NCBI GenBank assembly: GCA_964016885.1 | Contig: OZ024742.1 | Coordinates: 247,070,001-247,134,000 of the forward strand | Direction: 5' to 3' | Source of the DNA: Eledone cirrhosa | Taxonomy: Eukaryota | Length of the DNA stretch: 64,000 bases | Part shown: positions 9,271 to 58,300 of the stretch, in pieces | Numbering within the stretch: position 1 is the first letter of the stretch | Layout of the letters: every line of letters begins with the position of its first letter | Program-made: the position numbers and the translations under genes | The notes under the pieces: generated by a model | What the model was told of the DNA's origin: nothing | Database searches by the model: none | The model's input: the letters and a program-made list of their open reading frames with translations, nothing else

Positions 9271-9271
9271 G

Positions 9272-21609: not shown

Positions 21610-23160
21610 TTTCTTTATTAACCACAAGGGTTTACACAAAGTAGACATTAAGGACAGTACAGGACAGTACAGGACAAAAGGGCATTTCTGCGTGTAAAAA
21701 AAAAACAGAAGATGTAACAAAAAAAGAAAACAATGAAGAATTCCCCAATAGAGGGGAGACTTCCGAGGGACATTCGTGGAGAAAACCCATTAAAAAAAAT
21801 TCACGGTGACCCAGACCACCAGGGCAAGTGCCCTCTCCTAGTTTTCCACCTTTAATTTACAGGCACATATTCAGAGTAGGACCATTCACAGGGCCATTTT
21901 TGCGTCTCTCACCCATCTTTCAACAAAATGATGGGAAGAGAGCACTTCCCTCTCTACCCTGATTTTACTTTTTAAATGAAATTTGAAAAAGTTAATCAGG
22001 GCATCACCGAAGAGGTAAGTGCTCGTCTTCAGCCCTTTCAAACGTGTCCACCATACTATCTCTTTCGCCATGGCCACCAGACAGATAAAAATTGCCTGCC
22101 CTTCCCGGTTAAAGGAAGAGGGCGGGGCAATACTCACGATGAACTCAGCTGATAGCTGGATTCGTCTTACACGCGACAGCAGGTGTTCGACATAAACCCA
22201 CAAGTCAGCAATGCTCGGACACTGGAATAGTGCGTGCAGGACGGTTTTGTCGCCACTGCGTGCATCTCGGACATGCTCGGCTGACGGCACCTTCATGCCT
22301 GTAGAGTTTATCCCGAACTGGCAAAGTTCCTCGGTAGCACTGCCAGGCCATGGATTTCTGGAAGTTGTCCATAGGCCCCGGTCCGAAAGTTCTTCAGAAG
22401 GGATTGGCTACTTGATTTTCGTCGACGCCTAGAGTTTCCCCAAGTACGTCATCGCTGTTCCCTGCCTCTCCAGGTGCCGAGCTGCAGGCCCACCGACTTT
22501 TCCTGGTTCACCATGGCTTCTGTCACCGCTTCGTATTCTCTTAGTGTAGTGCCGATCGCCTCGATGTATTTGGCGTTCGACACCACTACGGTGACATCGT
22601 CGGCATATGCTGACACGGATCTTCCGCATCCTAGTTCGCGCGGGATCCCGCTCAACGTCTCCAGTGTGTGCAGTAATTGCTCGAGAGTCAATACGTACAA
22701 GAAGGACGCGAGGGGACATCCTTGGCGGACCGAGCGCATGATGTTGAACGGTTCCGAAAGATGACCGTTCACTCTCACTACAGAGCAGATGTCGCTGTGC
22801 ATGGCAGCGATCCAGCCTCTGAAGACGGGCCCAAAGCCAGCCGCCCTCAGGACTGCCGCTAGGTAACGATGGTCGACCCTATCGAAGGCTTTCGACTGAT
22901 CTAAATTGATCAAAGACCCACCCGTGCCAGGTTCCCTAGCTACCCTCTCTACGATGTATCGCATGAGGTGGAGGTTGTCGTGGATGGATCTGTCGGGAAT
23001 GGCGCATGTCTGTGCCTCTCCCACCAGACCACCAACGACAAGCGCCAACCTCTTTGCTAGCACCTTGGCCAATATCTTGAACTCTGTGTTTAGCAGAGTT
23101 ATGGGCCTAAAATTATCTATGTTATCCCCCTTGTTCGGATCCTTTCTCAGCAGCGCCACC
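21608..23160 (-). mobile_element. 3' half of a minus-strand Tx1 copy (RT core to 3'UTR, internal deletion at ~22460)
   Basis: Starts at VALLRKDPNKG and contains FRPITLLN, KAFDRV and YADD; the 3'UTR ends aataaagaaatc(att)n at 21608. Confidence 0.92.
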
Positions 23161-24543
23161 AGACGGACAAAAACTGGGACGAGGTGACGAGCAGGGTGGT
23201 TTCTCTCACCCAAAAATGGGCCGAGAGGAAGCTATCCCTGAAAGGTCGAGCGGAGGTGGCGAATGTGTACATCGCATCCGTCATCTACTACGGCCTGACC
23301 GTCGTACCTTGTCCTAAGTCCCGCCTGACTGCGCTGGAGCGTTTGCTCTTTCGCTTGTTTGTAGAAGGGACGCGCTCCGATGGTCAGGCGGTCCATCTGC
23401 TGTCAACACCCGCTACGTGGAGGGCTGGGTATGCCGTGGCTGATGATGCGCAGACACGCGCTCAGGCTACGACATCTCCACCTCTTCCTCGACGGTGATC
23501 AGGTGTGGTCGCCGTTTGCTAGACACGTTTTTCCCCAGCTCGTCTCCTTGACGGAGCTGCAGTCCTGGGTCAAGCGAAGACCGAGAGGGAGCGCTTGGAG
23601 ACTGGAATGTCTTCAGGCGCTCACAGCCCTCGACCAATCGGGCAATGTGATCGGTGGAAACTCCACCTTGGCGTTCTATAGGGGATTAGTGGAGGGGAAG
23701 AGCGACGACGTACTTGGAGAAACTCTAGGCGTCGACGAAAATCAACTAGCCAATCTCTTCGGAAGGACTTTCGGGCCGGGGCCTATGGACAACTTCCAGA
23801 AATCCATGGCCTGGCAGTGCTACCGAGGAGCTTTGCCAGTTCGGGATAAACTCTACAGGCATGGAGGTGCCGTCAGCCGGGCATGTCCGAGATGCGCGCA
23901 GGGCGACGAAACCGTCCTGCACGCACTCGTCCAGTGTCCGAGCATTGCTGACTTGTGGGTTTATGTCGAACACCTGCTGTCACGTGTAGGACGGATCCAG
24001 CTATCAGCTGAGTCCATCGTGAGGATTGCCCCGCCCCCTTCCTTTAGCCGGGAAGGGCAGGCAGTTTTTATCTGTCTGGTGGCCATGGCGAAAGAGATAG
24101 TATGGTGGACACGTTTGAAAGGGCTGAAGACGAGCACTTACCTCTTCGGTGATGCCCTGATTAACTTTTTCAAATTTCATCTGAAAAGGAAAATCAGGGT
24201 AGAGAGGGAAGTGCTCTCTTCCCAGCATTTTGTTGAAAGATGGGTGAGAGAAGCAAGTATGGCCCGAATGAATGGGCCTTCTCTGAGTATGTGTCTGTAA
24301 ATTAAAGGTGGAAAACTGGGAGAGGGCACTTGCCCTGGTGGTCAGGGCCACTGTGGTCTTTTAATGGGCTTTCTCCACAAATGTCCCTCGGAAGTCTCCC
24401 CCCTATTGGGGAATTTTTCTTTGTTATTTTATTTCATCCTCTGTTTTTTTTACACGCAGAAATGCCCATTTGTCCCGTCCTGTATTGTCCTGTACTGTCC
24501 TTAATGTCTACTTTATGTAAACCCTCGTGTTTAATAAAGAAAA

Positions 24544-24544
<1 letters not shown>
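23161..24544 (+). mobile_element. 5'-truncated Tx1 copy (ORF2 C-terminus + 3'UTR), leading unit of the array
   Basis: QTDKNWDEV..CPRCAQGDETVLHALVQC..stop at 24300, 3'UTR, then (ATT)10 at 24545-24574. More diverged than the five full copies. Confidence 0.93.
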
Positions 24545-24574: not shown

Positions 24575-24787
24575 GAATGCCATGGTTGACGGAGGCTCGG
24601 CTCTGTAAGGTATAGTAATTTTTAACCGTTAAAACAATTGTAAATTGTTTAAAACTTGAACCAAATTGTTGATAAAGACACCCTCCTCCTCGTGAGAGGG
24701 GTCTTTCTGTCCGTTATTTGGCCCTTCGGGGTTAAATAACCAGTTATTGGGGTTTTGTACCCAAAATTTCATTTTAAACAAAAAAAC

Positions 24788-26887
24788 ATGGCTACCAAAA
24801 AAAAAAAATTTCATACGTCACTCCCACTCATTCCGTCTTCTTCTTCCTCAATCATCACTACAGGAGAGAGAAGATTGTCTCTCTCCCTCCCTTCTTTAAA
24901 TGTGTCTCTCTCCCTACCTTCTCTTTCGCAAGCGACGAAAGAAAAGAAAAGTCTCGTGCAAAGCGTGCAAGGTTTCTCCACGACGACGACGACAGCGACG
25001 AAACAGGTGTGCGGGAAATACGAAAACCCAGTTCATTCGTCTGACGTCAGGAATAATAGCAGTAGCAGCCGTAATAACAACAGCAACAGTGACAATGAAA
25101 ACAACAGTAGCAGCCGCAACAGCATCACCAGCAGCATAAACAACAACAGCATTAGCAGCAGCAACACCAACAACAACCACAGCAACAGCGGCGGAGGCAG
25201 TAGTCGTAGTACCTGCAGCAACAACAAAAGTACCAGCAGCTCTGACGACAACAACAACAGCAGAGAAAAACCAATCTCATTTGCAGGTATTGCGAAAAAC
25301 CTGGAAACAATCCTCATAACAAATGAGGAATTAGAGGAAGCGAAGAAGATGGTGACAAAGAACGGACACCGAGCAATCTGCAAGGCAGCGAAAAATTTTT
25401 TCGAAACCCAAGAGCACTGTACGGTCACGTACCGTACAGTAAGTACAAAATCCCGTAGGGTGGAAAGAGCCACAGAGGCCCAAATACAAAAAGCCTTGGG
25501 GTCTGTGTGGCAGAGGAAAACGCACATCACCCGAGGCAAAAAATACGCCACCGTAGACGTACTTTTTGCCACACCCCAGGAGGCAAAGGCCCAATCAATA
25601 GTGACCCTAAGGAGCGAGGAAATGGTGTTGGTGCCCTCCTACTGCGGGCAAAAAATTGTGAGGGTCAAACTGACCCACGTCCCCCCCGGAATGACCCCTT
25701 CTTGGCTGGCCGCGTCTGTCCTCGTCGGAATCGAGGACAAAACAACTGTACTGCAAGTACAGAAAAAAGTAAGAGAAGATTGGGTCGGCTCCTCCATTGA
25801 GATGCTAATCCAAACCAACCAGGAGTGCATCGAAGCTATCCCGGATGTGATAGACTTCGATAACGGCACTCAACTGCCCATAAGTGTTGAGGGCAAACGC
25901 CCGAAATGCTTTCGCTGTGGATCGAAGACTCACCTCAGGGCCTTCTGCAACGAGAAGACCCTGAGAAAGGAGAAAACCCCCCTCCTCCCGAATCCGGTTC
26001 CACGGCTACCAGCAACAGGACAAGCGGCAACCAGGAACGATAGGTCCGTGGCACCCATACCCACTCCACGGAAATCAAAGACAGCAGCAGCAGTGGAAAT
26101 ATTAACAACAACAACAGCAATACCAAATGCAGCTGCAACAGAGACTCCAGTGCAAACATCACCAACAACAACAAGTGAAAGAGTGGAGCTGGTACCCCTC
26201 CCCGACCTTACAGAATCAGACATGGAGTGTGAGGTGGGAGAGGGATGGCAAAAGGTCTCAAGAAGGCACAAACGCAGAAGCAGCGCATCGTCGCCTTTGA
26301 AAAGGGAGGAAAGAAATGAGAAAAGGGTAAAGTCTACTGCAAAGAGACCCACAGCAGCAACACCACCAACACCATCACCACCCACACCAGCACCACCATC
26401 ACCACCGGCGACAACCCCACCGCCAACAACACCTTCAACACCACCACCACAAGCACCAACATCGCAAACACAACAACAAAACACACACACCCAGCAACAA
26501 CGACAAGAAAATAGCAGAACCACACCCCACCCCCAGAAAAACAAATGCACGGCAATAAACACACACAACAAGAAACTAATGACTTACATAATTGAACACA
26601 CAGACATTTCACAACAGGACTACATAATACCAGCACCAATCAAAACGCCAACTAACATAAGACTGCTAAAAATAGCACAGAAACAATACACAAACATTAA
26701 AACGAAATTCCCCAACGCAGTTGGTGATTTCAGGGACCTAGGAGGAACCATTAATCGAAGAGTATATTCAGACATTCTCTTAGAAGAGCCGACGACCAGC
26801 CGAAGGGACGATTCAACGGTCCCTTCACCAGACGATCAAGTGAAAAGGGATGTAAAAACCATCCCTCCTCTACCAAAAATACGGTAA
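24788..26887 (+). CDS. Tx1 ORF1 nucleic-acid-binding (gag-like) protein, copy 1
   Basis: First ATG at 24788 (MATKKKKF; the ORF track starts at an upstream TTG). N/S-rich N-terminus, ISFAGIAK, CCHC knuckle CFRCGSKTHLRAFC, basic WQKVSRRHKRR, P/T-rich region. Confidence 0.9.
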   Translation: MATKKKKFHTSLPLIPSSSSSIITTGERRLSLSLPSLNVSLSLPSLSQATKEKKSLVQSVQGFSTTTTTATKQVCGKYENPVHSSDVRNNSSSSRNNNSNSDNENNSSSRNSITSSINNNSISSSNTNNNHSNSGGGSSRSTCSNNKSTSSSDDNNNSREKPISFAGIAKNLETILITNEELEEAKKMVTKNGHRAICKAAKNFFETQEHCTVTYRTVSTKSRRVERATEAQIQKALGSVWQRKTHITRGKKYATVDVLFATPQEAKAQSIVTLRSEEMVLVPSYCGQKIVRVKLTHVPPGMTPSWLAASVLVGIEDKTTVLQVQKKVREDWVGSSIEMLIQTNQECIEAIPDVIDFDNGTQLPISVEGKRPKCFRCGSKTHLRAFCNEKTLRKEKTPLLPNPVPRLPATGQAATRNDRSVAPIPTPRKSKTAAAVEILTTTTAIPNAAATETPVQTSPTTTSERVELVPLPDLTESDMECEVGEGWQKVSRRHKRRSSASSPLKREERNEKRVKSTAKRPTAATPPTPSPPTPAPPSPPATTPPPTTPSTPPPQAPTSQTQQQNTHTQQQRQENSRTTPHPQKNKCTAINTHNKKLMTYIIEHTDISQQDYIIPAPIKTPTNIRLLKIAQKQYTNIKTKFPNAVGDFRDLGGTINRRVYSDILLEEPTTSRRDDSTVPSPDDQVKRDVKTIPPLPKIR

Positions 26888-26922
26888 GTGGTCTTTCCCA
26901 TCTTTTCCACTCTATTTTAAAC

Positions 26923-29900
26923 ATGACCTCACTCAGAATAGGCAGCATAAATGCGCGTGGCTTGGGGTCGTCATGGAAGCAGGGTCACCTGCTCAACGAC
27001 CTCAGGTCACTAAACATAGATGTAGTGGCCATCAGCGAGACCAGAATCTCCGAAGCACGGGCCTTCGCACCGATCTTCGGCGGCTACGATGTGTACGCAT
27101 CTCCCAGCCGTCCTGGATCGGGTGGAGGAGTTGCTGTGCTTTTTCGGAGAGGTTTGGATCTCGCCATACGGGCCATCTTCCTGGACCCAGAGGGTAAGCT
27201 GGTGGTGCTGGACGTGACCAGCGGAGACGGGCAAGCTTTCAGGCTAGTGGCCGTCTATGCCCCGACAGGAGCAGGGCGGCCTGATTTCTTCCGGCGTCTG
27301 GAGACCTTTCTTGGAACGTCGCGCTCTTTAGTGTTAGTGGGCGACTGGAACGGGATCTTAGATGCACGCTGGGACTGTGTGGGATTAGCGGATAGGGGTG
27401 GAGGGTGCAAGAGCCTCACCAACCTGCTCAGGCGTTTTGAACTGTCTGACAGGTACCGATTGGATTTCCCGAATGTGCCAATGTGGACTTGGACAAACCG
27501 CATAGGGTCATCCAGATCATATCTAGATAGAGTATTTTGTAGGGAAATAGATAGGTCTAGCATAGGCTGTCCACAATTCAAGATAGTCAGCTACACGGAC
27601 CACAAATTCGTGATCTGTGTGCTTGACTTAGATAGGCTTCATAGACGAGGACCCGGCTACTGGAAGCTAAACGCGTCCTTACCAGCGCGCAAGGCCTACA
27701 GAGACCGGATTAGCGAACTAGTTAAGCGGGCGTTGACGGGGGCCATCGTCAACAACAAGTGGTGGTTTGCTCTGAAAAGAGCGATTAGAATAGAATCGAT
27801 TAGGTTTAGTAAGGCTTTAGCAATAGAGAAAAATAGAGCAGAGGGAGAACTAGTTAGAAAATTAGACGAGGCGCTTAGCAAAGGCATTGCGACCGACGTG
27901 CTTGCGGCGAAATTGGCCCTTGACCAATTCTTCAATGCAAAGCACGAAGGCTGCGTTGTCAGAGCTAGGGTGCGTGCTCTCAGACACGAGGGGACGAAAG
28001 CCGTTCAATGGGCCCGAGTGGCGGAGGCGCGTCGTGGCAACAAAGCCACGATCCGGTCTTTGGTGGACCACGACGGGCGCATGCTACTCGATCCCGGGCA
28101 AATGTGTGAAGCTTTTCAGCGACACTTCGCTCAGCTGTTCGGGGGCAGCGGGGGGCCGGGTAGAGGGATGGACTTTAGTGTCTACCTCGACGGACTGCCG
28201 CGGCTCTCGGCCACTGAGGCGAAGTGTTGCGAAAAGCCGATAACAGCCGCTGAAGTAAGGGAGGCAATGACTGGCTGCACAAGGGGTAAATCGCCTGGTT
28301 TGGATGGTCTGCCCTATGAACTTTACGTACAGATGCCAGACTTGTTCGGAGGCCTCTTGGCGGACGTCTACTGCAACTGGCAACAGAACGGGAGAATTCC
28401 CAGTTCTGTGAGCCGAGGAGCGGTGGCACTGCTGAGAAAGGATCCGAACAAGGGGGATAACATAGACAATTTCCGGCCCATAACTCTGCTAAACACAGAG
28501 TTTAAGATTTTGGCCAAGGTGCTAGCAAAGAGGTTGGCGCTTGTCGTTGGTGGTCTGGTGGGAGAGGCGCAGACATGCGCCATTCCCGACAGATCCATCC
28601 ACGACAACCTCCACCTCATGCGATACATCGTAGAGAGGGTAGCTAGGGAACCTGGCACGGGTGGGTCCTTGATCAATTTAGATCAGTCGAAAGCTTTCGA
28701 TAGGGTCGACCATCGTTACCTAGCGGCAGTCCTGAGGGCGGCTGGCTTTGGGCCCGTCTTCAGAGGCTGGATCGCTGCCATGCACAGCGACATCTGCTCT
28801 GTGGTGAGAGTGAACGGTCACCTGTCGGAACCGTTCAACATCATGCGCTCGGTCCGCCAAGGATGTCCCCTCTCGTCCCTCTTGTACGTATTGACTCTCG
28901 AGCCATTACTGCACAAACTGGAGACGTTGAGGGGAGTCCCGCGCGAACTAGGATGCGGAAGATCCGTGTCAGCATATGCGGACGATGTCACCGTAGTGGT
29001 GTCGAACGCCAAACACATCGAGGCGATCGGCACTACACTAAGAGAATACGAAGCGGTGACAGGAGCAATGATCAACCAGGAAAAGTCAGTGGGCCTGCAG
29101 CTCGGCACCTGGAGAGGCAGGTCCATGCCGTCCAACAGCGTCGTCGGGCGCTGGACGGACGGACCGGTTAAATTGCTAGGGGTCTGGTTCGGTCCGGACC
29201 TCCAGACGGACAAAAACTGGGACGAGGTGACGAGCAGGGTGGCTTCTCTCACCCAGAAATGGGCGGAGAGGAAGCTATCCCTGAAAGGTCGAGCGGAGGT
29301 GGCTAACGCGTACATCGCGTCTGTCATCTGCTACCGCCTAACCGTCGTACCTTGTTCTAAGCCTCGCCTGACTGCGCTGGAGCGTTTGCTCTTTCGCTTT
29401 TTGTGGAAGGGACGTGCTCCGATGGTCAGGCGGTCCATCTGTTGTCAACACCCGCTACGTGGAGGGCTGGGCATGCCGTGGCTGATGATGCGCAGGCACG
29501 CGCTCAGGCTACGACATCTCCACCTCTTCCTCGACGGTGATCAGGTGTGGTCGCCGTTTGCTAGACGCGTTTTTCCCCAGCTCGTTTCCTTGACGGAGCT
29601 GCAGTCCTGGGTCAAGCGAAGACCGAGAGGGAGCGCCTGGAGACTGGAATGTCTTCAGGCGCTCACAGCCCTCGACCAATCGGGCAATGTGATCGGTGGA
29701 AACTCCACCTCGGCGTTCTATAGAGGATTAGTGGAGGGGAAGAGCGACGACGTACTTGGGGAAACTCTAGGCGTCGACGAAAATCAACTAGCCAATCTCT
29801 TCGGAAGAACCTTCGGGCCGGGGCCTATGGACAACTTCCAGAAATCTCTGGCCTGGCAGTGCTACCGAGGAGCCTTGCCAGTTCGGGATAAACTCTACAG

Positions 29901-30342
29901 GCATGGAGGTGCCGTCAGCCGGGCATGTCCGAGATGCGCGCAGGGCGACGAAACCGTCCTGCACGCACTCGTCCAGTGTCCGAAAATTGCTGACTTGTGG
30001 GTTTATGTCGAACACCTGCTGTCGCGTTTAGGACGGATCCAGCTATCATCTGAGTCTATCGTGAGGATTGCCCCGCCCTCCTCCTTTAGCCGGGAAGGGC
30101 AGGCAGTTTTTATCTGTCTGGTGGCCATGGCGAAAGAGATAGTATGGTGGACACGTTTGAAAGGGCTGAAGACGAGCACTTACCTCTTCGGTGATGCTCT
30201 GATTGACTTTTTCAAATTTCATTTGAAAAGGAAAATCAGAGTAGAGAAGGAAGTGCTCTCTTCCCAGCATTTTGTTGAAAGATGGGTGAGAGAAGCAAGA
30301 ATGGCCCGAGTGAATGGGCCGACTCTGAGTATATATCTGTAA
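26923..30342 (+). CDS. Tx1 ORF2: AP endonuclease + reverse transcriptase + C-terminal CCHC, copy 1
   Basis: 1139 aa. APE motifs SINARGL, SETR, GDWN, YLDR, TDH; RT motifs KSPGLDG, FRPITLLN, DQSKAFDRV, RQGCPLS, YADD; CPRC..ETVLHALVQC. Confidence 0.97.
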   Translation: MTSLRIGSINARGLGSSWKQGHLLNDLRSLNIDVVAISETRISEARAFAPIFGGYDVYASPSRPGSGGGVAVLFRRGLDLAIRAIFLDPEGKLVVLDVTSGDGQAFRLVAVYAPTGAGRPDFFRRLETFLGTSRSLVLVGDWNGILDARWDCVGLADRGGGCKSLTNLLRRFELSDRYRLDFPNVPMWTWTNRIGSSRSYLDRVFCREIDRSSIGCPQFKIVSYTDHKFVICVLDLDRLHRRGPGYWKLNASLPARKAYRDRISELVKRALTGAIVNNKWWFALKRAIRIESIRFSKALAIEKNRAEGELVRKLDEALSKGIATDVLAAKLALDQFFNAKHEGCVVRARVRALRHEGTKAVQWARVAEARRGNKATIRSLVDHDGRMLLDPGQMCEAFQRHFAQLFGGSGGPGRGMDFSVYLDGLPRLSATEAKCCEKPITAAEVREAMTGCTRGKSPGLDGLPYELYVQMPDLFGGLLADVYCNWQQNGRIPSSVSRGAVALLRKDPNKGDNIDNFRPITLLNTEFKILAKVLAKRLALVVGGLVGEAQTCAIPDRSIHDNLHLMRYIVERVAREPGTGGSLINLDQSKAFDRVDHRYLAAVLRAAGFGPVFRGWIAAMHSDICSVVRVNGHLSEPFNIMRSVRQGCPLSSLLYVLTLEPLLHKLETLRGVPRELGCGRSVSAYADDVTVVVSNAKHIEAIGTTLREYEAVTGAMINQEKSVGLQLGTWRGRSMPSNSVVGRWTDGPVKLLGVWFGPDLQTDKNWDEVTSRVASLTQKWAERKLSLKGRAEVANAYIASVICYRLTVVPCSKPRLTALERLLFRFLWKGRAPMVRRSICCQHPLRGGLGMPWLMMRRHALRLRHLHLFLDGDQVWSPFARRVFPQLVSLTELQSWVKRRPRGSAWRLECLQALTALDQSGNVIGGNSTSAFYRGLVEGKSDDVLGETLGVDENQLANLFGRTFGPGPMDNFQKSLAWQCYRGALPVRDKLYRHGGAVSRACPRCAQGDETVLHALVQCPKIADLWVYVEHLLSRLGRIQLSSESIVRIAPPSSFSREGQAVFICLVAMAKEIVWWTRLKGLKTSTYLFGDALIDFFKFHLKRKIRVEKEVLSSQHFVERWVREARMARVNGPTLSIYL

Positions 30343-30603
30343 ACTAAAGGTGGAAAACTGGGAGAGGGCACTTGCCTTGGTGGTCAGGGTCATTGTGGCT
30401 TTTTACTGGGCTTTCTCCACAAATGTCCCTCCGAAGTCTCCCCCCTATTGGGGAATTTTTCATTGTTATTTTCATTGTTATTTTTGTTACATCCTCTATT
30501 TTTGTTTTTTTTACACGCAGAAATGCCCATTTGTACCGTCCTGCATTGTCCTGCACTGTCCTTAATGTCTACTTTATGTAAACCCTTGTGGTTAATAAAG
30601 AAA

Positions 30604-30647
<44 letters not shown>

Positions 30648-30860
30648 GAATGCCATGGTTGACGGAGGCTCGGCTCTGTAAGGTATAGTAATTTTTAACC
30701 GTTAAAACAATTGTAAATTGTTTAAAACTTGAACCAAATTGTTGATAAAGACACCCTCCTCCTCGTGAGAGGGGTCTTTCTGTCCGTTATTTGGCCCTTC
30801 GGGGTTAAATAGCCAGTTATTGGGGTTTTGTACCCAAAATTTCATTTTAAACAAAAAAAC

Positions 30861-32957: not shown

Positions 32958-32992
32958 GTGGTCTTTCCCATCTTTTCCACTCTATTTTAAAC

Positions 32993-36412: not shown

Positions 36413-36673
36413 ACTAAAGGTGGAAAACTGGGAGAGGGCACTTGCCTTGGTGGTCAGGGTCTTTGTGGCTTTTTACTGGGCTTTCTCCACAAATGTCCCT
36501 CCGAAGTCTCCCCCCTATTGGGGAATTTTTTCATTGTTATTTTCATTGTTATTTTTGTTACATCCTCTGTTTTTGTTTTTTTACACGCAGAAATGCCCAT
36601 TTGTACCGTCCTGCATTGTCCTGCACTGTCCTTAATGTCTACTTTATGTAAACCCTTGTGGTTAATAAAGAAA

Positions 36674-36726
<53 letters not shown>

Positions 36727-36939
36727 GAATGCCATGGTTGACGGAGGCTCGGCTCTGTAAGGTATAGTAATTTTTAACCGTTAAAACAATTGTAAATTGT
36801 TTAAAACTTGAACCAAATTGTTGATAAAGACACCCTCCTCCTCGTGAGAGGGGTCTTTCTGTCCGTTATTTGGCCCTTCGGGGTTAAATAGCCAGTTATT
36901 GGGGTTTTGTACCCAAAATTTCATTTTAAACAAAAAAAC

Positions 36940-42752: not shown

Positions 42753-42805
<53 letters not shown>

Positions 42806-43018
42806 GAATGCCATGGTTGACGGAGGCTCGGCTCTGTAAGGTATAGTAATTTTTAACCGTTAAAACAATTGTAAATTGTTTAAAACTTGAACCAAATTGT
42901 TGATAAAGACACCCTCCTCCTCGTGAGAGGGGTCTTTCTGTCCGTTATTTGGCCCTTCGGGGTTAAATAGCCAGTTATTGGGGTTTTGTACCCAAAATTT
43001 CATTTTAAACAAAAAAAC

Positions 43019-45115: not shown

Positions 45116-45150
45116 GTGGTCTTTCCCATCTTTTCCACTCTATTTTAAAC

Positions 45151-48570: not shown

Positions 48571-48831
48571 ACTAAAGGTGGAAAACTGGGAGAGGGCACT
48601 TGCCTTGGTGGTCAGGGTCTTTGTGGCTTTTTACTGGGCTTTCTCCACAAATGTCCCTCCGAAGTCTCCCCCCTATTGGGGAATTTTTTCATTGTTATTT
48701 TCATTGTTATTTTTGTTACATCCTCTGTTTTTGTTTTTTTACACGCAGAAATGCCCATTTGTACCGTCCTGCATTGTCCTGCACTGTCCTTAATGTCTAC
48801 TTTATGTAAACCCTTGTGGTTAATAAAGAAA

Positions 48832-48884
<53 letters not shown>

Positions 48885-49097
48885 GAATGCCATGGTTGAC
48901 GGAGGCTCGGCTCTGTAAGGTATAGTAATTTTTAACCGTTAAAACAATTGTAAATTGTTTAAAACTTGAACCAAATTGTTGATAAAGACACCCTCCTCCT
49001 CGTGAGAGGGGTCTTTCTGTCCGTTATTTGGCCCTTCGGGGTTAAATAGCCAGTTATTGGGGTTTTGTACCCAAAATTTCATTTTAAACAAAAAAAC

Positions 49098-51196
49098 ATG
49101 GCTACCAAAAAGAAATTTCATACGTCACTCCCACTCATTCCGTCTTCTTCTTCCTCAATCATCACTACAGGAGAGAGAAGATTGTCTCTCTCCCTCCCTT
49201 CTTTAAATGTGTCTCTCTCCCTCCCTTCTCTTTCGCAAGCGACGAAAGAAAAGAAAAGTCTCGTGCAAAGCGTGCAAGGTTTCTCCACGACGACGACGAC
49301 AGCGACGAAACAGGTGTGCGGGAAATACGAAAACCCAGTTCATTCGTCTGACGTCAGGAATAATAGCACTAGCAGCCGTAATAACAACAGCAACAGTGAC
49401 AATGAAAACAACAGTAGCAGCCGCAACAGCATCACCAGCAGCATAAACAACAACAGCATTAGCAGCAGCAACACCAACAACAACCACAGCAACAGCGGCG
49501 GAAGCAGTAGTCGTAGTACCTGCAGCAACAACAAAAGTACCAGCAGCTCTGACGACAACAACAACAGCAGAGAAAAACCAATCTCATTTGCAGGTATTGC
49601 GAAAAATTTGGAAACAATCCTCATAACAAATGAGGAATTAGAGGAAGCGAAGAAGATGGTGACAAAGAACGGACACCGAGCAATCTGCAAGGCAGCGAAA
49701 AATTTTTTCGAAACCCAAGAGCACTGTACGGTCACGTACCGTACAGTAAGTACAAAATCCCGTAGGGTGGAAAGAGCCACAGAGGCCCAAATACAAAAAG
49801 CCTTGGGGTCTGTGTGGCAGCGGAAAACGCACATCACCCGAGGCAAAAAATATGCCACCGTAGACGTACTTTTTGCCACACCCCAGGAGGCAAAGGCCCA
49901 ATCAGTAGTGACCCTAAGGAGCGAGGAAATGGTGTTGGTGCCCTCCTACTGTGGGCAAAAAATTGTGAGGGTCAAACTGACCCACGTCCCCCCCCCGGAA
50001 TGACCCCTTCTTGGCTGGCCGCGTCTGTCCTCGTCGGAATCGAGGACAAAACAACTGTACTGCAAGTACAGAAAAAAGTAAGAGAAGATTGGGTCGGCTC
50101 CTCCATTGAGATGCTAATCCAAACCAACCAGGAGTGCATCGAAGCTATCCCGGATGTGATAGACTTCGATAACGGCACTCAACTGCCCATAAGTGTTGAG
50201 GGCAAACGCCCGAAATGCTTTCGCTGTGGATCGAAGACTCACCTCAGGGCCTTCTGCAACGAGAAGACCCTGAGAAAGGAGAAAACCCCCCTCCTTCCGA
50301 ATCCGGCTCCACGGCTACCAGCAACAGGACAAGCGGCAACCAGGAACGATAGGCCCGTGGCACCCATACCCACTCCACGGAAATCAAAAACAGCAGCAGC
50401 AGTGGAAATACTAACAACAACAACAGCAATACCAAATGCAGCTGCAACAGAGACTCCAGTGCAAACATCACCAACAACAACAAGTGAAAGAGTGGAGTTG
50501 GTACCCCTCCCCGACCTCACAGAATCAGACATGGAGTGTGAGGTGGGAGAGAGATGGCAAAAGGTCGTAAGAAGGCACAAACGCAGAAGCAGCGCATCGT
50601 CGCCTTTGAAAAGTGAGGAAAGAAATGAGAAAAGGGTAAAGTCTACTGCAAAGAGACCCACAGCAGCAACAACACCAACACCATCACCACCCACACTAGC
50701 GCCACCATCACCACCGGCGACAACCCCACCGCCAACAACACCTTCAACACCACCACCACAAGCACCAACATCGCAAACACAACAACAAAACACACACACC
50801 CAGCAACAACGACAAGAAAATAGCAGAACCACACCCCACCCCCAGAAAAACAAATGCACGGCAATAAACACACACAACAAGAAACTAATGACTTACATAA
50901 TTGAACACACAGACATTTCACAACAGGACTACATAATACCAGCACCAATCAAAACGCCAACTAACATAAGACTGCTAAAAATAGCACAGAAACAATACAC
51001 AAACATTAAAACGAAATTCCCCAACGCAGTTGGTGATTTCAGGGACCTAGGAGGAACCATTAATCGAAGAGTATATTCAGACATTCTCTTAGAAGAGCCG
51101 ACGACCAGCCGAAGGGACGATTCAACGGTCCCTTCACCAGACGATCAAGTGAAAAGGGATGTAAAAACCATCCCTCCTCTACCAAAAATACGGTAA
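49098..51196 (+). pseudogene. Tx1 ORF1, copy 5, frameshifted at a C homopolymer
   Basis: C9 at 49988-49996 versus C7 in the other copies; could be a sequencing homopolymer error. Confidence 0.7.
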
Positions 51197-51231
51197 GTGG
51201 TCTTTCCCATCTTTTCCACTCTATTTTAAAC

Positions 51232-54200
51232 ATGACCTCACTCAGAATAGGCAGCATAAATGCGCGTGGCTTGGGGTCGTCATGGAAGCAGGGTCACCTG
51301 CTCAACGACCTCAGGTCACTAAACATAGATGTAGTGGCCATCAGCGAGACCAGAATCTCCGAAGCACGGGCCTTCGCACCGATCTTCGGCGGCTACGATG
51401 TGTACGCATCTCCCAGCCGTCCTGGATCGGGTGGAGGAGTTGCTGTGCTTTTTCGGAGAGGTTTGGATCTCGCCATACGGGCCATCTTCCTGGACCCAGA
51501 GGGTAAGCTGGTGGTGCTGGACGTGACCAGCGGAGACGGGCAAGCTTTCAGGCTAGTGGCCGTCTATGCCCCGACAGGAGCAGGGCGGCCTGATTTCTTC
51601 CGGCGTCTGGAGACCTTTCTTGGAACGTCGCGCTCTTTAGTGTTAGTGGGCGACTGGAACGGGATCTTAGATGCACGCTGGGACTGTGTGGGATTAGCGG
51701 ATAGGGGTGGAGGGTGCAAGAGCCTCACCAACCTGCTCAGGCGTTTTGAACTGTCTGACAGGTACCGATTGGATTTCCCGAATGTGCCAATGTGGACTTG
51801 GACAAACCGCATAGGGTCATCCAGATCATATCTAGATAGAGTATTTTGTAGGGAAATAGATAGGTCTAGCATAGGCTGTCCACAATTCAAGATAGTCAGC
51901 TACACGGACCACAAATTCGTGATCTGTGTGCTTGACTTAGATAGGCTTCATAGACGAGGACCCGGCTACTGGAAGCTAAACGCGTCCTTACCAGCGCGCA
52001 AGGCCTACAGAGACCGGATTAGCGAACTAGTTAAGCGGGCGTTGACGGGGGCCATCGTCAACAACAAGTGGTGGTTTGCTCTGAAAAGAGCGATTAGAAT
52101 AGAATCGATTAGGTTTAGTAAGGCTTTAGCAATAGAGAAAAATAGAGCAGAGGGAGAACTAGTTAGAAAATTAGACGAGGCGCTTAGCAAAGGCATTGCG
52201 ACCGACGTGCTTGCGGCGAAATTGGCCCTTGACCAATTCTTCAATGCAAAGCACGAAGGCTGCGTTGTCAGAGCTAGGGTGCGTGCTCTCAGACACGAGG
52301 GGACGAAAGCCGTTCAATGGGCCCGAGTGGCGGAGGCGCGTCGTGGCAACAAAGCCACGATCCGGTCTTTGGTGGACCACGACGGGCGCATGCTACTCGA
52401 TCCCGGGCAAATGTGTGAAGCTTTTCAGCGACACTTCGCTCAGCTGTTCGGGGGCAGCGGGGGGCCGGGTAGAGGGATGGACTTTAGTGTCTACCTCGAC
52501 GGACTGCCGCGGCTCTCGGCCACTGAGGCGAAGTGTTGCGAAAAGCCGATAACAGCCGCTGAAGTAAGGGAGGCAATGACTGGCTGCACAAGGGGTAAAT
52601 CGCCTGGTTTGGATGGTCTGCCCTATGAACTTTACGTACAGATGCCAGACTTGTTCGGAGGCCTCTTGGCGGACGTCTACTGCAACTGGCAACAGAACGG
52701 GAGAATTCCCAGTTCTGTGAGCCGAGGAGCGGTGGCACTGCTGAGAAAGGATCCGAACAAGGGGGATAACATAGACAATTTCCGGCCCATAACTCTGCTA
52801 AACACAGAGTTTAAGATTTTGGCCAAGGTGCTAGCAAAGAGGTTGGCGCTTGTCGTTGGTGGTCTGGTGGGAGAGGCGCAGACATGCGCCATTCCCGACA
52901 GATCCATCCACGACAACCTCCACCTCATGCGATACATCGTAGAGAGGGTAGCTAGGGAACCTGGCACGGGTGGGTCCTTGATCAATTTAGATCAGTCGAA
53001 AGCTTTCGATAGGGTCGACCATCGTTACCTAGCGGCAGTCCTGAGGGCGGCTGGCTTTGGGCCCGTCTTCAGAGGCTGGATCGCTGCCATGCACAGCGAC
53101 ATCTGCTCTGTGGTGAGAGTGAACGGTCACCTGTCGGAACCGTTCAACATCATGCGCTCGGTCCGCCAAGGATGTCCCCTCTCGTCCCTCTTGTACGTAT
53201 TGACGCTCGAGCCATTACTGCACAAACTGGAGACGTTGAGGGGAGTCCCGCGCGAACTAGGATGCGGAAGATCCGTGTCAGCATATGCGGACGATGTCAC
53301 CGTAGTGGTGTCGAACGCCAAACACATCGAGGCGATCGGCACTACACTAAGAGAATACGAAGCGGTGACAGGAGCAATGATCAACCAGGAAAAGTCAGTG
53401 GGCCTGCAGCTCGGCACCTGGAGAGGCAGGTCCATGCCGTCCAACAGCGTCGTCGGGCGCTGGACGGACGGACCGGTTAAATTGCTAGGGGTCTGGTTCG
53501 GTCCGGACCTCCAGACGGACAAAAACTGGGACGAGGTGACGAGCAGGGTGGCTTCTCTCACCCAGAAATGGGCGGAGAGGAAGCTATCCCTGAAAGGTCG
53601 AGCGGAGGTGGCTAACGCGTACATCGCGTCTGTCATCTGCTACCGCCTAACCGTCGTACCTTGTCCTAAGCCTCGCCTGACTGCGCTGGAGCGTTTGCTC
53701 TTTCGCTTTTTGTGGAAGGGACGTGCTCCGATGGTCAGGCGGTCCATCTGTTGTCAACACCCGCTACGTGGAGGGCTGGGCATGCCGTGGCTGATGATGC
53801 GCAGGCACGCGCTCAGGCTACGACATCTCCACCTCTTCCTCGACGGTGATCAGGTGTGGTCGCCGTTTGCTAGACGCGTTTTTCCCCAGCTCGTTTCCTT
53901 GACGGAGCTGCAGTCCTGGGTCAAGCGAAGACCGAGAGGGAGCGCCTGGAGACTGGAATGTCTTCAGGCGCTCACAGCCCTCGACCAATCGGGCAATGTG
54001 ATCGGTGGAAACTCCACCTCGGCGTTCTATAGAGGATTAGTGGAGGGGAAGAGCGACGACGTACTTGGGGAAACTCTAGGCGTCGACGAAAATCAACTAG
54101 CCAATCTCTTCGGAAGAACTTTCGGGCCAGGGCCTATGGACAACTTCCAGAAATCTCTGGCCTGGCAGTGCTACCGAGGAGCCTTGCCAGTTCGGGATAA

Positions 54201-54651
54201 ACTCTACAGGCATGGAGGTGCCGTCAGCCGGGCATGTCCGAGATGCGCGCAGGGCGACGAAACCGTCCTGCACGCACTCGTCCAGTGTCCGAAAATTGCT
54301 GACTTGTGGGTTTATGTCGAACACCTGCTGTCGCGTTTAGGACGGATCCAGCTATCATCTGAGTCTATCGTGAGGATTGCCCCGCCCTCCTCCTTTAGCC
54401 GGGAAGGGCAGGCAGTTTTTATCTGTCTGGTGGCCATGGCGAAAGAGATAGTATGGTGGACACGTTTGAAAGGGCTGAAGACGAGCACTTACCTCTTCGG
54501 TGATGCTCTGATTGACTTTTTCAAATTTCATTTGAAAAGGAAAATCAGAGTAGAGAAGGAAGTGCTCTCTTCCCAGCATTTTGTTGAAAGATGGGTGAGA
54601 GAAGCAAGAATGGCCCGAGTGAATGGGCCGACTCTGAGTATATATCTGTAA
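51232..54651 (+). CDS. Tx1 ORF2 (APE-RT-CCHC), copy 5
   Basis: 1139 aa, motifs intact. Confidence 0.97.
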   Translation: MTSLRIGSINARGLGSSWKQGHLLNDLRSLNIDVVAISETRISEARAFAPIFGGYDVYASPSRPGSGGGVAVLFRRGLDLAIRAIFLDPEGKLVVLDVTSGDGQAFRLVAVYAPTGAGRPDFFRRLETFLGTSRSLVLVGDWNGILDARWDCVGLADRGGGCKSLTNLLRRFELSDRYRLDFPNVPMWTWTNRIGSSRSYLDRVFCREIDRSSIGCPQFKIVSYTDHKFVICVLDLDRLHRRGPGYWKLNASLPARKAYRDRISELVKRALTGAIVNNKWWFALKRAIRIESIRFSKALAIEKNRAEGELVRKLDEALSKGIATDVLAAKLALDQFFNAKHEGCVVRARVRALRHEGTKAVQWARVAEARRGNKATIRSLVDHDGRMLLDPGQMCEAFQRHFAQLFGGSGGPGRGMDFSVYLDGLPRLSATEAKCCEKPITAAEVREAMTGCTRGKSPGLDGLPYELYVQMPDLFGGLLADVYCNWQQNGRIPSSVSRGAVALLRKDPNKGDNIDNFRPITLLNTEFKILAKVLAKRLALVVGGLVGEAQTCAIPDRSIHDNLHLMRYIVERVAREPGTGGSLINLDQSKAFDRVDHRYLAAVLRAAGFGPVFRGWIAAMHSDICSVVRVNGHLSEPFNIMRSVRQGCPLSSLLYVLTLEPLLHKLETLRGVPRELGCGRSVSAYADDVTVVVSNAKHIEAIGTTLREYEAVTGAMINQEKSVGLQLGTWRGRSMPSNSVVGRWTDGPVKLLGVWFGPDLQTDKNWDEVTSRVASLTQKWAERKLSLKGRAEVANAYIASVICYRLTVVPCPKPRLTALERLLFRFLWKGRAPMVRRSICCQHPLRGGLGMPWLMMRRHALRLRHLHLFLDGDQVWSPFARRVFPQLVSLTELQSWVKRRPRGSAWRLECLQALTALDQSGNVIGGNSTSAFYRGLVEGKSDDVLGETLGVDENQLANLFGRTFGPGPMDNFQKSLAWQCYRGALPVRDKLYRHGGAVSRACPRCAQGDETVLHALVQCPKIADLWVYVEHLLSRLGRIQLSSESIVRIAPPSSFSREGQAVFICLVAMAKEIVWWTRLKGLKTSTYLFGDALIDFFKFHLKRKIRVEKEVLSSQHFVERWVREARMARVNGPTLSIYL

Positions 54652-54911
54652 ACTAAAGGTGGAAAACTGGGAGAGGGCACTTGCCTTGGTGGTCAGGGTC
54701 ATTGTGGCTTTTTACTGGGCTTTCTCCACAAATGTCCCTCCGAAGTCTCCCCCCTATTGGGGAATTTTTCATTGTTATTTTCATTGTTATTTTTGTTACA
54801 TCCTCTGTTTTTGTTTTTTTACACGCAGAAATGCCCATTTGTACCGTCCTGCATTGTCCTGCACTGTCCTTAATGTCTACTTTATGTAAACCCTTGTGGT
54901 TAATAAAGAAA

Positions 54912-54957
<46 letters not shown>

Positions 54958-54970: not shown

Positions 54971-55041
54971 AAAATAAAGTACCAGTAATGCATTGGGTAA
55001 TTGCTGGCCTTGTGCCTAAAGTAGAAACAATTATTATTATT
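54971..55041 (+). mobile_element. 3' fragment of the same SINE family as 18027-18210, with ATT tail
   Basis: aaaataaagtaccagtaatg..gccttgtgcctaaagtagaaac matches ~18146-18204. Confidence 0.85.
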
Positions 55042-55370
55042 GGCGACCTACGAAGGAAATCGTATTATCGTGAGCTCCGCAAAGGTTTGTTGTTTTCAGT
55101 TGTTTCAAATTGCAAGTTATGGAAAATTTTTGTCGTTAAGTGTTTATAAGTTCACATATATTGCTTTCTGAAAAGGACACTCAAAAAGATTGAGGCCTTG
55201 AGTCCAAAATTTAAACTTTTATAATTATCAAACAATAACTTTCTTTGAAAAAAACATGGACGACTCACAGCCACACGAAGCTGACAGCCTTCCTCACAAA
55301 CTAACACCTCACACCAACACCACCATTGTAAATATTACTACGTTTGCCAACACTAAACATATAAGCAGTA
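55042..55370 (+). mobile_element. 5' end fragment (5'UTR + ORF1 start) of type-B Tx1
   Basis: ggcgacctacg..gtgagctccgcaaaggtttgtt is an inverted, diverged match to 58672-59002. MDDSQPHEADSLPHKLTPHTNTTIVNITTFANTK matches MANSPLHEAAESLPHKITPHTDTTIVNVTTFANTK. Confidence 0.88.
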
Positions 55371-58300
55371 GCCACCGCTCCTCGACTCATAGAGCTGGGA
55401 ATTCTCCGTTTCTGTTGCCAGTTGCAGTAGACGTCCGCCAAGAGGCCTCCGAACAAGTCTGGCATCTGTACGTAAATTTCATAGGGAAGACCATCCAAAC
55501 AGGCGAAAGCCGCGGCAGTCCGTCGAGGTAGACACTAAAGTCCATCCCTCGATCCGGCCCGCCACTGCCCCCGAACAGTTGAGCGAAGTGTCGCTGAAAA
55601 GCTTCACACATTTGCCCAGGATCGAGTAGCATGCGCCCGTCGTGGTCCACCAAAGACCGGATCGTGGCTTTGTTGCCACGACGCGCCTCCGCCACTCGGG
55701 CCCATTGAACGGCTTTCGTCCCCTCGTGTCTGAGAGCACGCACCCTAGCTCTGACAACGCAGCCTTCGTGCTTTGCATTGAAGAATTGGTCAAGGGCCAA
55801 TTTCGCCGCAAGTACGTCGGTCGCGATGCCTTTGCTAAGCGCCTCATCTAATTTTCTAACTAATTCTCCCTCTGCTCTATTTTTCTCTATTGCTAAAGTC
55901 TTACTAAACCTAATGGACTCTATTCTAATTGCTCTTTTCAGAGCAAACCACCACTTGTTGTTGACGATGGCCCCCGTCAACGCCCGCTTAACTAGTTCGC
56001 TAATCCGGTCTTTGTAGGCCTTGCGCGCTGGTAAGGACGCTGTTAGCTTCCAGTAGCCGGGTCCTCGTCTATGAAGCCTATCTAAGTCAAGCACACAGAT
56101 CACGAATTTGTGGTCCGTGTAGCTGACTATCTTGAATTGTGGACAGCCTATGCTAGACCTATCTATTTCCCTACAAAATACTCTATCTAGATATGATCTG
56201 GATGACCCTATACGATTTGTCCAAGTCCACATTGGTACATTCGGGAAATCCATTCGGTACCTGTCAGACAGTTCAAAACGTCTGAGCAGGTTGGTGAGAC
56301 TCTTGCACCCTCCTTCCCTATCCACTAATCCCACACAATCCCAGCGTGCATCTAAGATCCCGTTCCAGTCGCCCACTAACACTAAAGAGCGGGACGTTCC
56401 AAGAAAGGTCTCCAGACGCCGGAAGAAATCAGGCCGCCCTGCTCCTGTCAGGGCATAGACGGCCACTAACCTGAAAGCTTGCCCGTCTCCGCTGGTCACG
56501 TCCAGCACCACCAACTTACCTTCTGGGTCCAGGAAGATGGCCCGTATGGCAAGATCCAAACCTCTCCGAAAAAGCACAGCAACTCCTCCCCCTGATCCCG
56601 GACGGCTGGGAGATGCGTACACATCGTAGCCGCCGAAGATCGGTGCGAAAGCCTGTGCTTCGGCGATTCTGGTCTCGCTGATGGCCACTACATCTATGTT
56701 TAGTGACCTGAGGTCGTTGAGCAGGTGGCCCTGCTTCCATGACGACCCCAAGCCACGCGCATTTATGCTGCCTATTCTGAGTGAGGTCATGTTGAAAAGG
56801 AGTGGAAAAGATGGGAAAGACCACTTACCTTACTTCTTGTAGGGGAAGGACGGTTTTTCCATCCTTTTCACTGCTTGTGGCCTCCTCAGGAAAGATGCCC
56901 TTATAAATCCTCCTGGAGAGTGCTTGTCGGAAGTCTCCGATGTCTTTGGGGAATTTTTGTTTTAGTGTCATGTACGTTTTCTATGTGATGCGAGTGATTT
57001 GTATGTGTGGAGGTGGTGTGAATTTTGGGGTTGTTGTGTAGTCTTTTTCTGTGATGCTGGTGTTGTGTTGGATGTAGTGTAATAATTGCTTGTTGTTCAA
57101 ATTTAATGCTGTGTAGTGTGTATCGTTTTGGTTGTTTTGTTTTGTTTGCGTTTGTTGTGGGTTTGTTTCTGTCTCGCATTTTGGTGACTTTTGTGGTGTA
57201 GGTGATGGTGCTGTTGGAGTTAATGATGGTGATGGTGTTGGTGTTTGGGTTGATGGGGTTGGTGATGCTGGTGTGGATGGTGGCATATCTGTCCTAACTT
57301 TTTTGTTTCTTAGTTTATTTGTTTCCCTCTGTATTTTGTTTTTGGAGGGGGAAGGAAGAGAATTTTTTTCTTTTTTGGTTTCTTTTTTTTTTCCCGGATA
57401 TCGTTTCCCACTCCTCGTCGTCACAATCTGTCTCCAGTTGTGATAGGCCGGGGAATGGAAAATCCTCCACAGCCGTTAGTTTTGGTTGTGGTGTGGTGGA
57501 TGGTGTAGGCGCTGGTGCTAGTTCTGAAGCGTTGGGTGGTAGTGGTGTTGGTTCTGCTACTGTTGCTGGGGTTGTTGCTGTTATAGTTGCTTCTGTTGTT
57601 GCTGCTACAGTTGTTGCTGCCATCTCTGCTACTGGTGGTGTTGATGGTTGTGTCACTGGGGTGGGTAGGAGAGGTGGCCTCAACCTTTTAGCCTGAGGGC
57701 AGAAAGCCCTTAGGTGGGTTCCTTCACCACAAACGACACACCTAGGTCTTCTGCCCTCGACAATTACCGTGAGGTGGCTGCCGTCAGTGAGGTCTATTAC
57801 CTCTGGGATCTCCTCAATGCTTTTTTGGTCCGCTTGGATCAGGAGCTCCATCCCAGATCCGGACCAGTTTTCCTGCTTTTCTTTTGCTATTGCTATTATT
57901 TTCGTGTTGGCTTCGATGCCGGCGAGGACAACCGCTATTATCCAGGGAATTTCGATGGCCGGTGGAACGTGGGTCACCCTGATCTTTACGAGTCTCTGGC
58001 CACAATAGCTTGGGACGAGTGTGAAGTCGTCACTTTTTAATGGGGCCATGGAGTGTTCTCTAGCCTCCTCTGGTGTTTCAAAGAACACATCCACGGTTCC
58101 ATACTTTTGCCCACGTCTGATGTGGGTTTTTCTTGCCCACACATGTCCCAAAGCTTTTTGGATTTGGGACTCGGATGCCCGTTCCACTCGGCGCGATTTT
58201 ACATTTATTGTTCTATACGACACCGTGCATAGGCGCCGATGCTCCATTTTATTAGGTGGGGGGTGAGGCTGACCCTGTACCCATTTTTCTTTACCATTTG

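What the first reader, a model, noticed from the sequence alone, without database searches (positions are those of the whole stretch)
23155..55376. The whole array sits inside a split opposite-strand copy of the same family (reciprocal breakpoints, GCCACC repeated)
Seen: the minus-strand fragment 55371-59002 stops at ..gaggagcGGTGGC (RGAVA). The minus-strand fragment 21608-23160 resumes at GGTGGCgctgctgagaaag (VALLRK). They are exactly contiguous in element coordinates, and GCCACC occurs at both 23155-23160 and 55371-55376. The 32,210 bp between them begin mid-ORF2 and end mid-ORF1 of a type-B copy, not at a tail, and the right end (agcagtagc) is microhomologous to the target (agcagtgcc/agcagcgcc). 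Inference: a slice of a pre-existing tail-to-head junction (Tx1 3' end-ATT-SINE end-ATT-Tx1 5' end) was captured into a break by microhomology or template switching, importing an ATT landing pad that young copies then filled.
Basis: partly seen in the sequence, partly recalled or inferred. Interest (0 to 1): 0.78.

Follow-up and report, generated by a model that had tools for sequence, protein, structure and literature searches.

The report
Neighbouring LINE copies fused, middle flipped
A 32-kb block of jumping-gene (LINE) copies lies backwards between two pieces whose ends overlap by six bases, but those pieces come from a young and an old copy, so the block is likely the locus's own middle, flipped during faulty DNA repair: a tidy case of ordinary repeat decay, not foreign DNA caught in one element.

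Summary
The geometry is real: the two minus-strand fragments overlap by 6 bp (GCCACC at 23155 and 55371) around 32,210 bp of plus-strand sequence. The interpretation mostly fails. The 'halves' are not one insertion. The right piece (55504-59002) is a young type-B copy (0.7% rare changes); the far left piece (21608-22460) is an old copy (5.0%). The ends of the 'insert' pair crosswise: its 3' piece is young and groups with the right half; its 5' stub is old and groups with the left half. So the donor junction was likely this locus itself: a head-to-tail pair, young E - SINE end - old F, the family's normal arrangement (41 same-orientation neighbours, 0 opposite, in 97 loci). E and F were likely fused in register into a patchwork chimera, and the middle was rejoined backwards at 2-3-bp microhomologies. 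The five type-A copies share alleles absent from 35 dispersed copies, so they grew mostly by local duplication, not five insertions. One oddity remains: 112 bp spanning the left junction are copied exactly into a third copy 12 kb away, at the homologous position. Known kind of event; low interest.

The parts
10771..10882 (+). 112-bp exact copy of the left junction (window 23148-23259) inside a third, old copy Z; it replaces element 3826-3844 of Z and ends in a 3-bp microhomology
   Evidence: only 2 full matches to the junction among the 40 scored in the genome
9332..14364 (-). Old copy Z (type-A 5' end, several internal gaps, about 3.4-4.0% rare changes), same orientation as the split element
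21572..21607 (-). (ATT)12 tail of old copy F
21608..22460 (-). Piece d: 3' end of old copy F (element 5160 to tail); 42 rare changes in 837 bp; best genomic relative 92%
22461..22710 (-). Piece b2: old ORF2 sequence (about 4296-4544); shares 4 rare alleles with Z; best genomic relative 96%
22760..23160 (-). Piece b1: young type-B ORF2 sequence (3845 to about 4245); 1 rare change in 396 bp
23155..23160 (.). Left junction, GCCACC; last 2 bp are microhomology with the insert
23159..24544 (+). Piece Y3: 3' part of young type-B copy E (about 4625 to tail); first 270 bp carry young-lineage alleles but excess private changes (8 of 274), the rest 5 of 1106
24575..54913 (+). Five full-length type-A copies head to tail (24575-30605, 30648-36675, 36727-42754, 42806-48833, 48885-54913), ATT runs of 14, 17, 17, 17 units between; ORF1 714 aa and ORF2 1195 aa open (ORF1 frameshifted in copy 5)
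54972..55030 (+).
55042..55372 (+). Piece F5: 5' 330 bp of an old type-B' copy; 14 rare changes in 322 bp; 20 of 20 diagnostic sites old
55371..55376 (.). Right junction, GCCACC; first 2 bp are microhomology with the insert
55371..55506 (-). Piece a2: old ORF2 patch (3714-3850); 6 rare changes in 130 bp, 2 of 2 diagnostic sites old
55504..59002 (-). Piece a1: 5' part of young type-B copy E (1-3632); 110 of 110 diagnostic sites young; genomic relatives 99%
59003..59092 (-). (ATT)30 target run upstream of E, beside a fragment of another LINE (59092-59900; R4/Dong-like by recalled motifs)

Best explanation
The two outer fragments are a patchwork of a young and an old LINE copy, and the backwards block between them likely is the stretch that once separated those two copies at this same locus. 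Before the event the minus strand likely read, head to tail: young copy E, ATT, (some type-A copies or none), ATT, SINE end, ATT, old copy F. E and F likely paired in register (single-strand annealing or non-allelic recombination between direct repeats about 5% diverged), which gave one chimera that alternates E (1-3632), F (3714-3850), E (to about 4245), F (4296 to tail). The mismatched hybrid was likely cut at 3845-3850, and the looped-out middle, trimmed to E 4625-tail + SINE end + F 1-330, was joined in backwards through 2-bp microhomologies. Pairing in register explains why the ends meet although they come from different copies. The type-A array then grew by unequal exchange (likely 3 to 5 copies in one step). 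Shown: geometry, mosaic, crosswise kinship, microhomologies, locus-private array alleles. Inferred: the ancestral order, the repair pathway, the order of steps.
For: Ages (rare changes): a1 25/3489, b1 1/396, Y3 distal 5/1106 versus a2 6/130, b2 13/302, d 42/837, F5 14/322; Fisher p 5e-15 for d vs a1, 0.76 for F5 vs d, 0.40 for Y3 distal vs a1. Trees: a1 in the young clade (100/99), Y3 in the young clade (95/86), F5 and d among old copies. Allele sharing over 44-47 genomic copies: F5 with d rho +0.68, a1 with Y3 +0.67, a1 with d -0.63. All three young pieces have the same nearest copy, L018, and share its minor alleles (5 of 8, 1 of 1, 4 of 5). Head-to-tail same orientation is the norm: 41 versus 0 in 97 loci; 50 of 53 5' ends follow ATT; SINE-end/ATT/type-B 5' junctions occur at 39 other scored places. 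Microhomology TCG, GC, CC, TGG at four junctions. Precedent in Alu reporters: 12% patchwork chimeras, and heteroduplex cleavage followed by alt-NHEJ (PMC4356517, PMC8068675; passages).
Against: No ancestral allele was seen. The pieces of E (and of F) do not overlap in element coordinates, so 'same individual copy' is inferred from lineage and age only. L018 is the least diverged copy and served as coordinate frame, so it is nearest partly by default (with A2 as frame it ranked first for a and b, fourth for the whole Y3). a2 rests on 130 bp and 2 diagnostic sites, and one young copy (L019) has the same old alleles there. b2 has one old and one young diagnostic allele. The first 270 bp of Y3 are young by lineage yet over-mutated, which the model does not explain. 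The cited Alu work proposes heteroduplex cleavage mainly for 15-30% divergence and scores deletions only, not inversions. The panel (47 copies) was picked by similarity to window pieces, out of more than 1500 candidates.
Confidence: 0.55

Rival explanations
1. Same local parents, but one replicative run with template switches (local n-jump, MMBIR/FoSTeS): copy E, jump to F, fold back through F 5' end, SINE and E tail, return near the exit point, finish on F.
For: All junctions have 2-3-bp microhomology; return with a 2-6-bp overlap; excess private changes next to the left junction (8 of 274); the junction copied into Z is copy-and-paste; local clusters of inverted and direct junctions are described in PMC7025897 (section 9 read).
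Against: No copy-number gain at the main locus apart from 2-6 bp; exit on old sequence at 3850 and re-entry on young sequence near 3845 still needs pairing in register.
Confidence: 0.18
2. Three simultaneous breaks, cut and paste: E already carried old patches from earlier gene conversion; breaks at 3845/3850, 4544/4625 and in F (330/5160) freed two fragments that were rejoined swapped, one of them inverted (a b c d became a, c inverted, b, d).
For: b ends at 4544 and Y3 starts at about 4625, only 80 bp apart; young/old mosaics occur in about 4 of 47 panel copies; needs only three new junctions.
Against: Needs two separate old patches in E that both happen to abut later breakpoints; b2 shares an allele with F-lineage copies L048 and L057, which fits b2 and d being one old piece.
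Confidence: 0.13
3. One reading: one opposite-strand copy was broken and captured a tail-SINE-head slice from another locus; young copies then filled the imported ATT run.
For: 6-bp overlap and microhomology; such junctions are common in the genome, so a young-tail/old-head slice could come from elsewhere; b1 next to the break is young like a1.
Against: The target would have to be a young-5'/old-3' chimera already, and the imported slice would by chance have to be its complement in both age and lineage. No donor: best matches elsewhere are 95% for SINE+F5 and 97% for the start of Y3, best 40 scored only. Array alleles are locus-private.
Confidence: 0.08
4. Assembly artefact: misjoined repeats.
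For: Five copies 99.4-99.97% alike over 30 kb are hard to assemble; no read-level support was obtained (uninformative).
Against: The left junction is present twice with different flanking alleles; junctions are clean microhomology joins; pieces carry private, coherent allele patterns; the contig is 379 Mb and the window has no N.
Confidence: 0.04

Closest known systems
Repeat-mediated deletion between homeologous direct repeats (Alu/Alu SSA chimeras; homeology-influenced NHEJ; PMC4356517, PMC8068675, passages read)
   Same: Two diverged direct repeats fused in register, patchwork chimera, new ends inside the hybrid joined by microhomology.
   Different: 6-kb LINEs about 5% apart, germline of an invertebrate; part of the intervening DNA is kept and inverted; those reporters score deletions only.
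Local n-jumps / deletion with a locally derived inserted fragment (PMC7025897, section 9 read)
   Same: Several clustered junctions, inverted and direct, all templates local.
   Different: Described in tumours; here every breakpoint lies inside copies of one repeat family and copy gain is limited to a 112-bp tract.
Multi-invasion-induced rearrangement (PMC10499017, section 19 read)
   Same: Predicts matched chimeric repeats and secondary breaks in bystander repeats, as might explain the junction copy at the homologous position of Z.
   Different: Shown in yeast; the flanking loss-of-heterozygosity signature cannot be tested in one haploid assembly.
Microsatellite-targeting Tx1-clade LINEs Kibi and Koshi (as described in PMC4494074, passages read; Kojima and Fujiwara 2004 not read)
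   Same: Two-ORF APE-type LINE with strict microsatellite target, giving tandem clusters.
   Different: Target here is (ATT)n, which is also the element's own tail; host likely an octopod (nearest named protein Argonauta hians, 73%). Active L1-Tx1 families are listed for Octopus vulgaris (PMC13282606, passages) without a target in the passages seen.

Membership tests
Tx1 clade non-LTR retrotransposon | ORF2 with APE endonuclease, reverse transcriptase and C-terminal zinc motif | tested here: met
   Pfam Exo_endo_phos, RVT_1, zf-RVT; best solved relative human L1 ORF2p, E 2e-52
Tx1 clade non-LTR retrotransposon | Separate ORF1 with a CCHC knuckle | tested here: met
   714-aa ORF1 with C-x2-C-x4-H-x4-C visible in the translation; no Pfam hit; motif expectation recalled
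Tx1 clade non-LTR retrotransposon | Target-sequence preference | tested here: met
   50 of 53 5' ends in 60 loci preceded by 2 or more ATT units
Tx1 clade non-LTR retrotransposon | RT groups with named Tx1 families rather than L1 | not tested
   No named Tx1 protein came up, so no reference tree was built
Nested retrotransposon insertion splitting one older copy | Both flanks derive from one insertion (same subfamily and age) | tested here: not met
   a1 young, d old; across the break a2 old, b1 young
Nested retrotransposon insertion splitting one older copy | Insert runs from a 5' end or truncation to a tail | tested here: not met
   Insert ends mid-ORF1 of another copy, not at a tail
Nested retrotransposon insertion splitting one older copy | Target-site duplication | tested here: inconclusive
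   2 to 6 bp once microhomology is allowed, and the two sides may come from different copies
Capture of distant DNA at a break | Donor sequence at another locus | tested here: not met
   No match above 95% or 97% among the 40 best scored; not exhaustive
Homeologous repeat-mediated rearrangement (SSA chimera, HI-NHEJ) | Chimeric repeat with patches of both parents | tested here: met
   Young-old-young-old along the outer element
Homeologous repeat-mediated rearrangement (SSA chimera, HI-NHEJ) | Microhomology at out-of-register junctions | tested here: met
   TCG, GC, CC, TGG; the 4544/5160 junction was not resolved
Homeologous repeat-mediated rearrangement (SSA chimera, HI-NHEJ) | Parents in direct orientation before the event | tested here: inconclusive
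   Inferred from crosswise kinship and the 41:0 norm; ancestral allele not seen
Homeologous repeat-mediated rearrangement (SSA chimera, HI-NHEJ) | Dependence on RAD52 and mismatch repair | not testable with these tools
   Historical event
Twin-priming 5' inversion | Inverted 5' piece plus 3' piece inserted as one unit at the family's target, nothing 5' of the truncation | tested here: not met
   b inverted + Y3 has the shape (80-bp gap), but its left flank is not ATT and the missing 5' part is present, contiguous within 6 bp
Multi-invasion-induced rearrangement | Matched chimeric repeats and flanking LOH | tested here: inconclusive
   Junction copy at the homologous position of Z; LOH not testable

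The most novel reading that the evidence does not exclude
One recombination accident broke three neighbouring LINE copies (E, F and Z) in register at the same ORF2 position, leaving a natural germline record of heteroduplex cleavage or multi-invasion in an animal, readable base by base because the parents differ in age; and a LINE that targets its own ATT tail systematically builds the tandem substrates for such events.
Probability: 0.2. Interest if true: 0.5.

Novelty: new member of a known kind. Interest (0 to 1): 0.22.

Why it matters
As a single locus of dead and duplicated repeats it changes little. It is a useful caution: contiguous element coordinates plus a short direct repeat do not prove that one element was split; dating each piece reversed the story. 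If the break in Z belongs to the same event, the locus would be a rare natural example of a mechanism known mainly from yeast and reporter cells. The family itself (self-tail targeting, young intact copies, tandem arrays) offers many such loci for a genome-wide test.

Tried and rejected
Simple inversion between two breaks: leaves the 6-bp contiguity unexplained. Old segmental duplication of Z and the main locus (both abut the same other LINE fragment): rejected, Z has a type-A 5' end and differs 6.4% from b; that neighbour is common beside this family. Recurrent hotspot at 3845-3850: pattern searches gave 4 and 7 matches; 3 are the window's junctions, 6 are tiny indels and 2 are short deletions starting at 3850 (L091, L097); the patterns see only about 40-55% of breakpoints and no control position was searched; in 60 loci 6 alignment ends fell in 3820-3870 against a mean of 4.8 per 50 bp. 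Reading the first 270 bp of Y3 as old copy F: dropped after one search showed young alleles at 4 sites. The tiling simulation was dropped as unfair, since some pieces are contiguous by construction. Read check: contigs of 4 coded runs laid on 21610-24540 were short repeat fragments with no listed piece bridging the junction, no evidence either way; the right junction has no read-level test. Flanking 10 kb on each side held none of the missing pieces of E or F at high identity. Earlier findings: none. Paper searches for an ATT- or TAA-targeting Tx1 in cephalopods listed none by title or abstract start; the library lacks most subscription papers, Repbase was not available, and no supplements were opened.
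Full report
Setting. The window is G000:C3:247070001-247134000 of a 3.0-Gb animal assembly. The nearest named relative of the ORF2 protein is from Argonauta hians at 73%, so the host is likely an octopod. The element is a 6.04-kb two-ORF LINE: ORF2 has endonuclease, reverse transcriptase and zinc domains, ORF1 a CCHC knuckle. It ends in (ATT)n and inserts into (ATT)n: 50 of 53 5' ends in 60 loci follow ATT. This fits a Tx1-like family, but the clade was not tested by phylogeny. Searches report 900 to 5956 first-look candidates per piece. Element positions below are counted on array copy A2.

The observation. The right minus-strand fragment ends at 3850, the left begins at 3845, and GCCACC is at both ends. 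Chance contiguity within 10 bp is about 0.35%. Two bases at each end are shared with the insert, so 2-6 bp are duplicated. The left fragment lacks 4545-5159 and the right one about 3633-3713.

Dating the pieces. I fetched 20 loci near the right half, 20 near the insert's 5' stub and 20 near the far-left piece, and used the 47 copies that have a type-B-like 5' end and a 3' end; type-A, headless and truncated copies were left out of that panel. Rare changes per piece: a1 25/3489, b1 1/396 and distal Y3 5/1106 (young); a2 6/130, b2 13/302, d 42/837 and F5 14/322 (old). Best hits elsewhere agree: 99% for a1, 92% for d, 96% for b2, 95% for SINE end plus F5. At diagnostic sites a1 is young at 110 of 110 and F5 old at 20 of 20; d is old at 7 of 8 and Y3 young at 10 of 11. 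Trees put a1 (100/99) and Y3 (95/86) in the young clade, F5 and d among old copies. Copies that share minor alleles with F5 also share them with d (rho +0.68, 46 copies); a1 goes with Y3 (+0.67) and against d (-0.63). Each group was chosen by one end only, so the match at the other end is not built in. All three young pieces are nearest to L018, with the caveat that L018 is the least diverged copy and was the frame.

What follows. The outer element is a chimera: young, old, young, old. The insert's ends are exactly what would lie between a young upstream copy E and an old downstream copy F: E's 3' end, a SINE end, F's 5' end. That order is the family's habit: 41 tail-adjacent neighbours in the same orientation and none opposite within 150 bp in 97 loci of 10 kb, a few of them overlapping; one 3-kb locus outside that count, L094, does show opposite pieces joined. 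SINE-end/ATT/type-B heads occur at 39 other scored places. So no import is needed, and since E's tail is inside the flipped block while its head is outside, the flip is likely younger than E.

Mechanism. Across the break, a2 is old and b1 young, so the matching coordinates likely reflect pairing of E and F in register. In Alu reporters, diverged direct repeats gave patchwork chimeras in 12% of recombinants, and cleavage of the heteroduplex followed by microhomology joining is proposed (PMC4356517 and PMC8068675, passages). I take that route as most likely (0.55), with the looped-out middle rejoined backwards through GC and CC. A replicative local n-jump (PMC7025897, section 9) and a three-break swap fit the same parents; the three local readings together come to about 0.85. 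Against: no ancestral allele; a2 is short; b2 is mixed at two diagnostic sites; the first 270 bp of Y3 are young by lineage but carry 8 rare changes, unexplained.

The array. A2-A5 differ pairwise at 2-7 columns and A1 at 32-37; 35 full-length type-A copies from other loci, chosen as the closest in ORF1, differ from A2 at 18-76. All five share an allele at 287 absent from 35 of 35, and ten more against 27-33 of 35; A2-A5 share three absent from 35 of 35; A2 and A4 share two absent from 35 of 35, while A1 and A3 share their 3' haplotype. The pattern fits duplication of a two-copy unit (3 to 5), although the ATT run after A3 has 17 units, not A1's 14. At most about two insertions are needed. Type A is about as young as E or younger, so its arrival cannot be ordered against the flip.

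The second junction. Window 23148-23259 is repeated exactly at 10771-10882, inside old copy Z, at Z's own position 3826-3844. Only these two full matches were found. Z differs from b by 6.4%, so 112 identical bases would arise with probability 0.0006 if the tract were as old; it is a recent copy that carries Y3's rare alleles. Z also shares four rare alleles with b2, a sign of older exchange or kinship. A break in Z within about 35 bp of the homologous site is either coincidence or part of the same event, as multi-invasion models allow (PMC10499017, section 19). A general hotspot was not evident.

Verdict. Real feature, first reading mostly overturned, known kind of event. Interest 0.22. Read-level confirmation is lacking (one search was uninformative).

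Noticed in passing
window 7250-9531: An older, plus-strand member of the superfamily (72% to A2) joins Z through a fold-back: element 5559-5662 forward, then 5662-5463 reversed. A further inverted junction in the same 50 kb.
   Followed up: partly
window 22461-22710 and Z 9528-10783: b2 and Z share four rare alleles (4437, 4494, 4496, 4511) interleaved with private ones: old local exchange or common descent.
   Followed up: partly
window 23161-23430: Young-lineage sequence with 8 rare changes in 274 bp plus a 1-bp insertion next to the left junction; error-prone repair or a patch from a sister sublineage.
   Followed up: partly
L121/L122 (G000:C2:123.71 Mb), L033/L034, L118-L120: Other head-to-tail arrays: the C2 pair shares six ORF2 alleles not listed for the other copies (likely local duplication); the C1 copies differ more; L033 looks like a type-B head on a type-A body.
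   Followed up: partly
L019, L031, L065, L080: About 4 of 47 panel copies are young/old mosaics, two of them fused at a deletion; chimeras are a background feature of the family.
   Followed up: partly
L093:1470-1560: An unrelated copy has a 1-bp insertion right after position 3850 that would lengthen the match to the inverted F head from 2 to 9 bp; if F had it, the right junction's microhomology was longer.
   Followed up: no
window 14402-15092 and 59092-59900: Fragments of a second LINE (R4/Dong-like by recalled motifs) that also sits at TAA/ATT runs, often tail to tail or beside this family; two families share one microsatellite target.
   Followed up: no
window 30648-48833 and one search hits: Type A has at least 36 other places identical over 601 bp and open ORFs in copies 1-4, so it is likely still or recently active; ORF2 is shared by at least three different 5'/ORF1 types (A, B, B').
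   Followed up: partly
window 23806 and 22347 region (element 5271): Y3 and d share one allele seen in no panel copy; may be a short conversion between the adjacent inverted arms or chance (about 7% by rough estimate).
   Followed up: no
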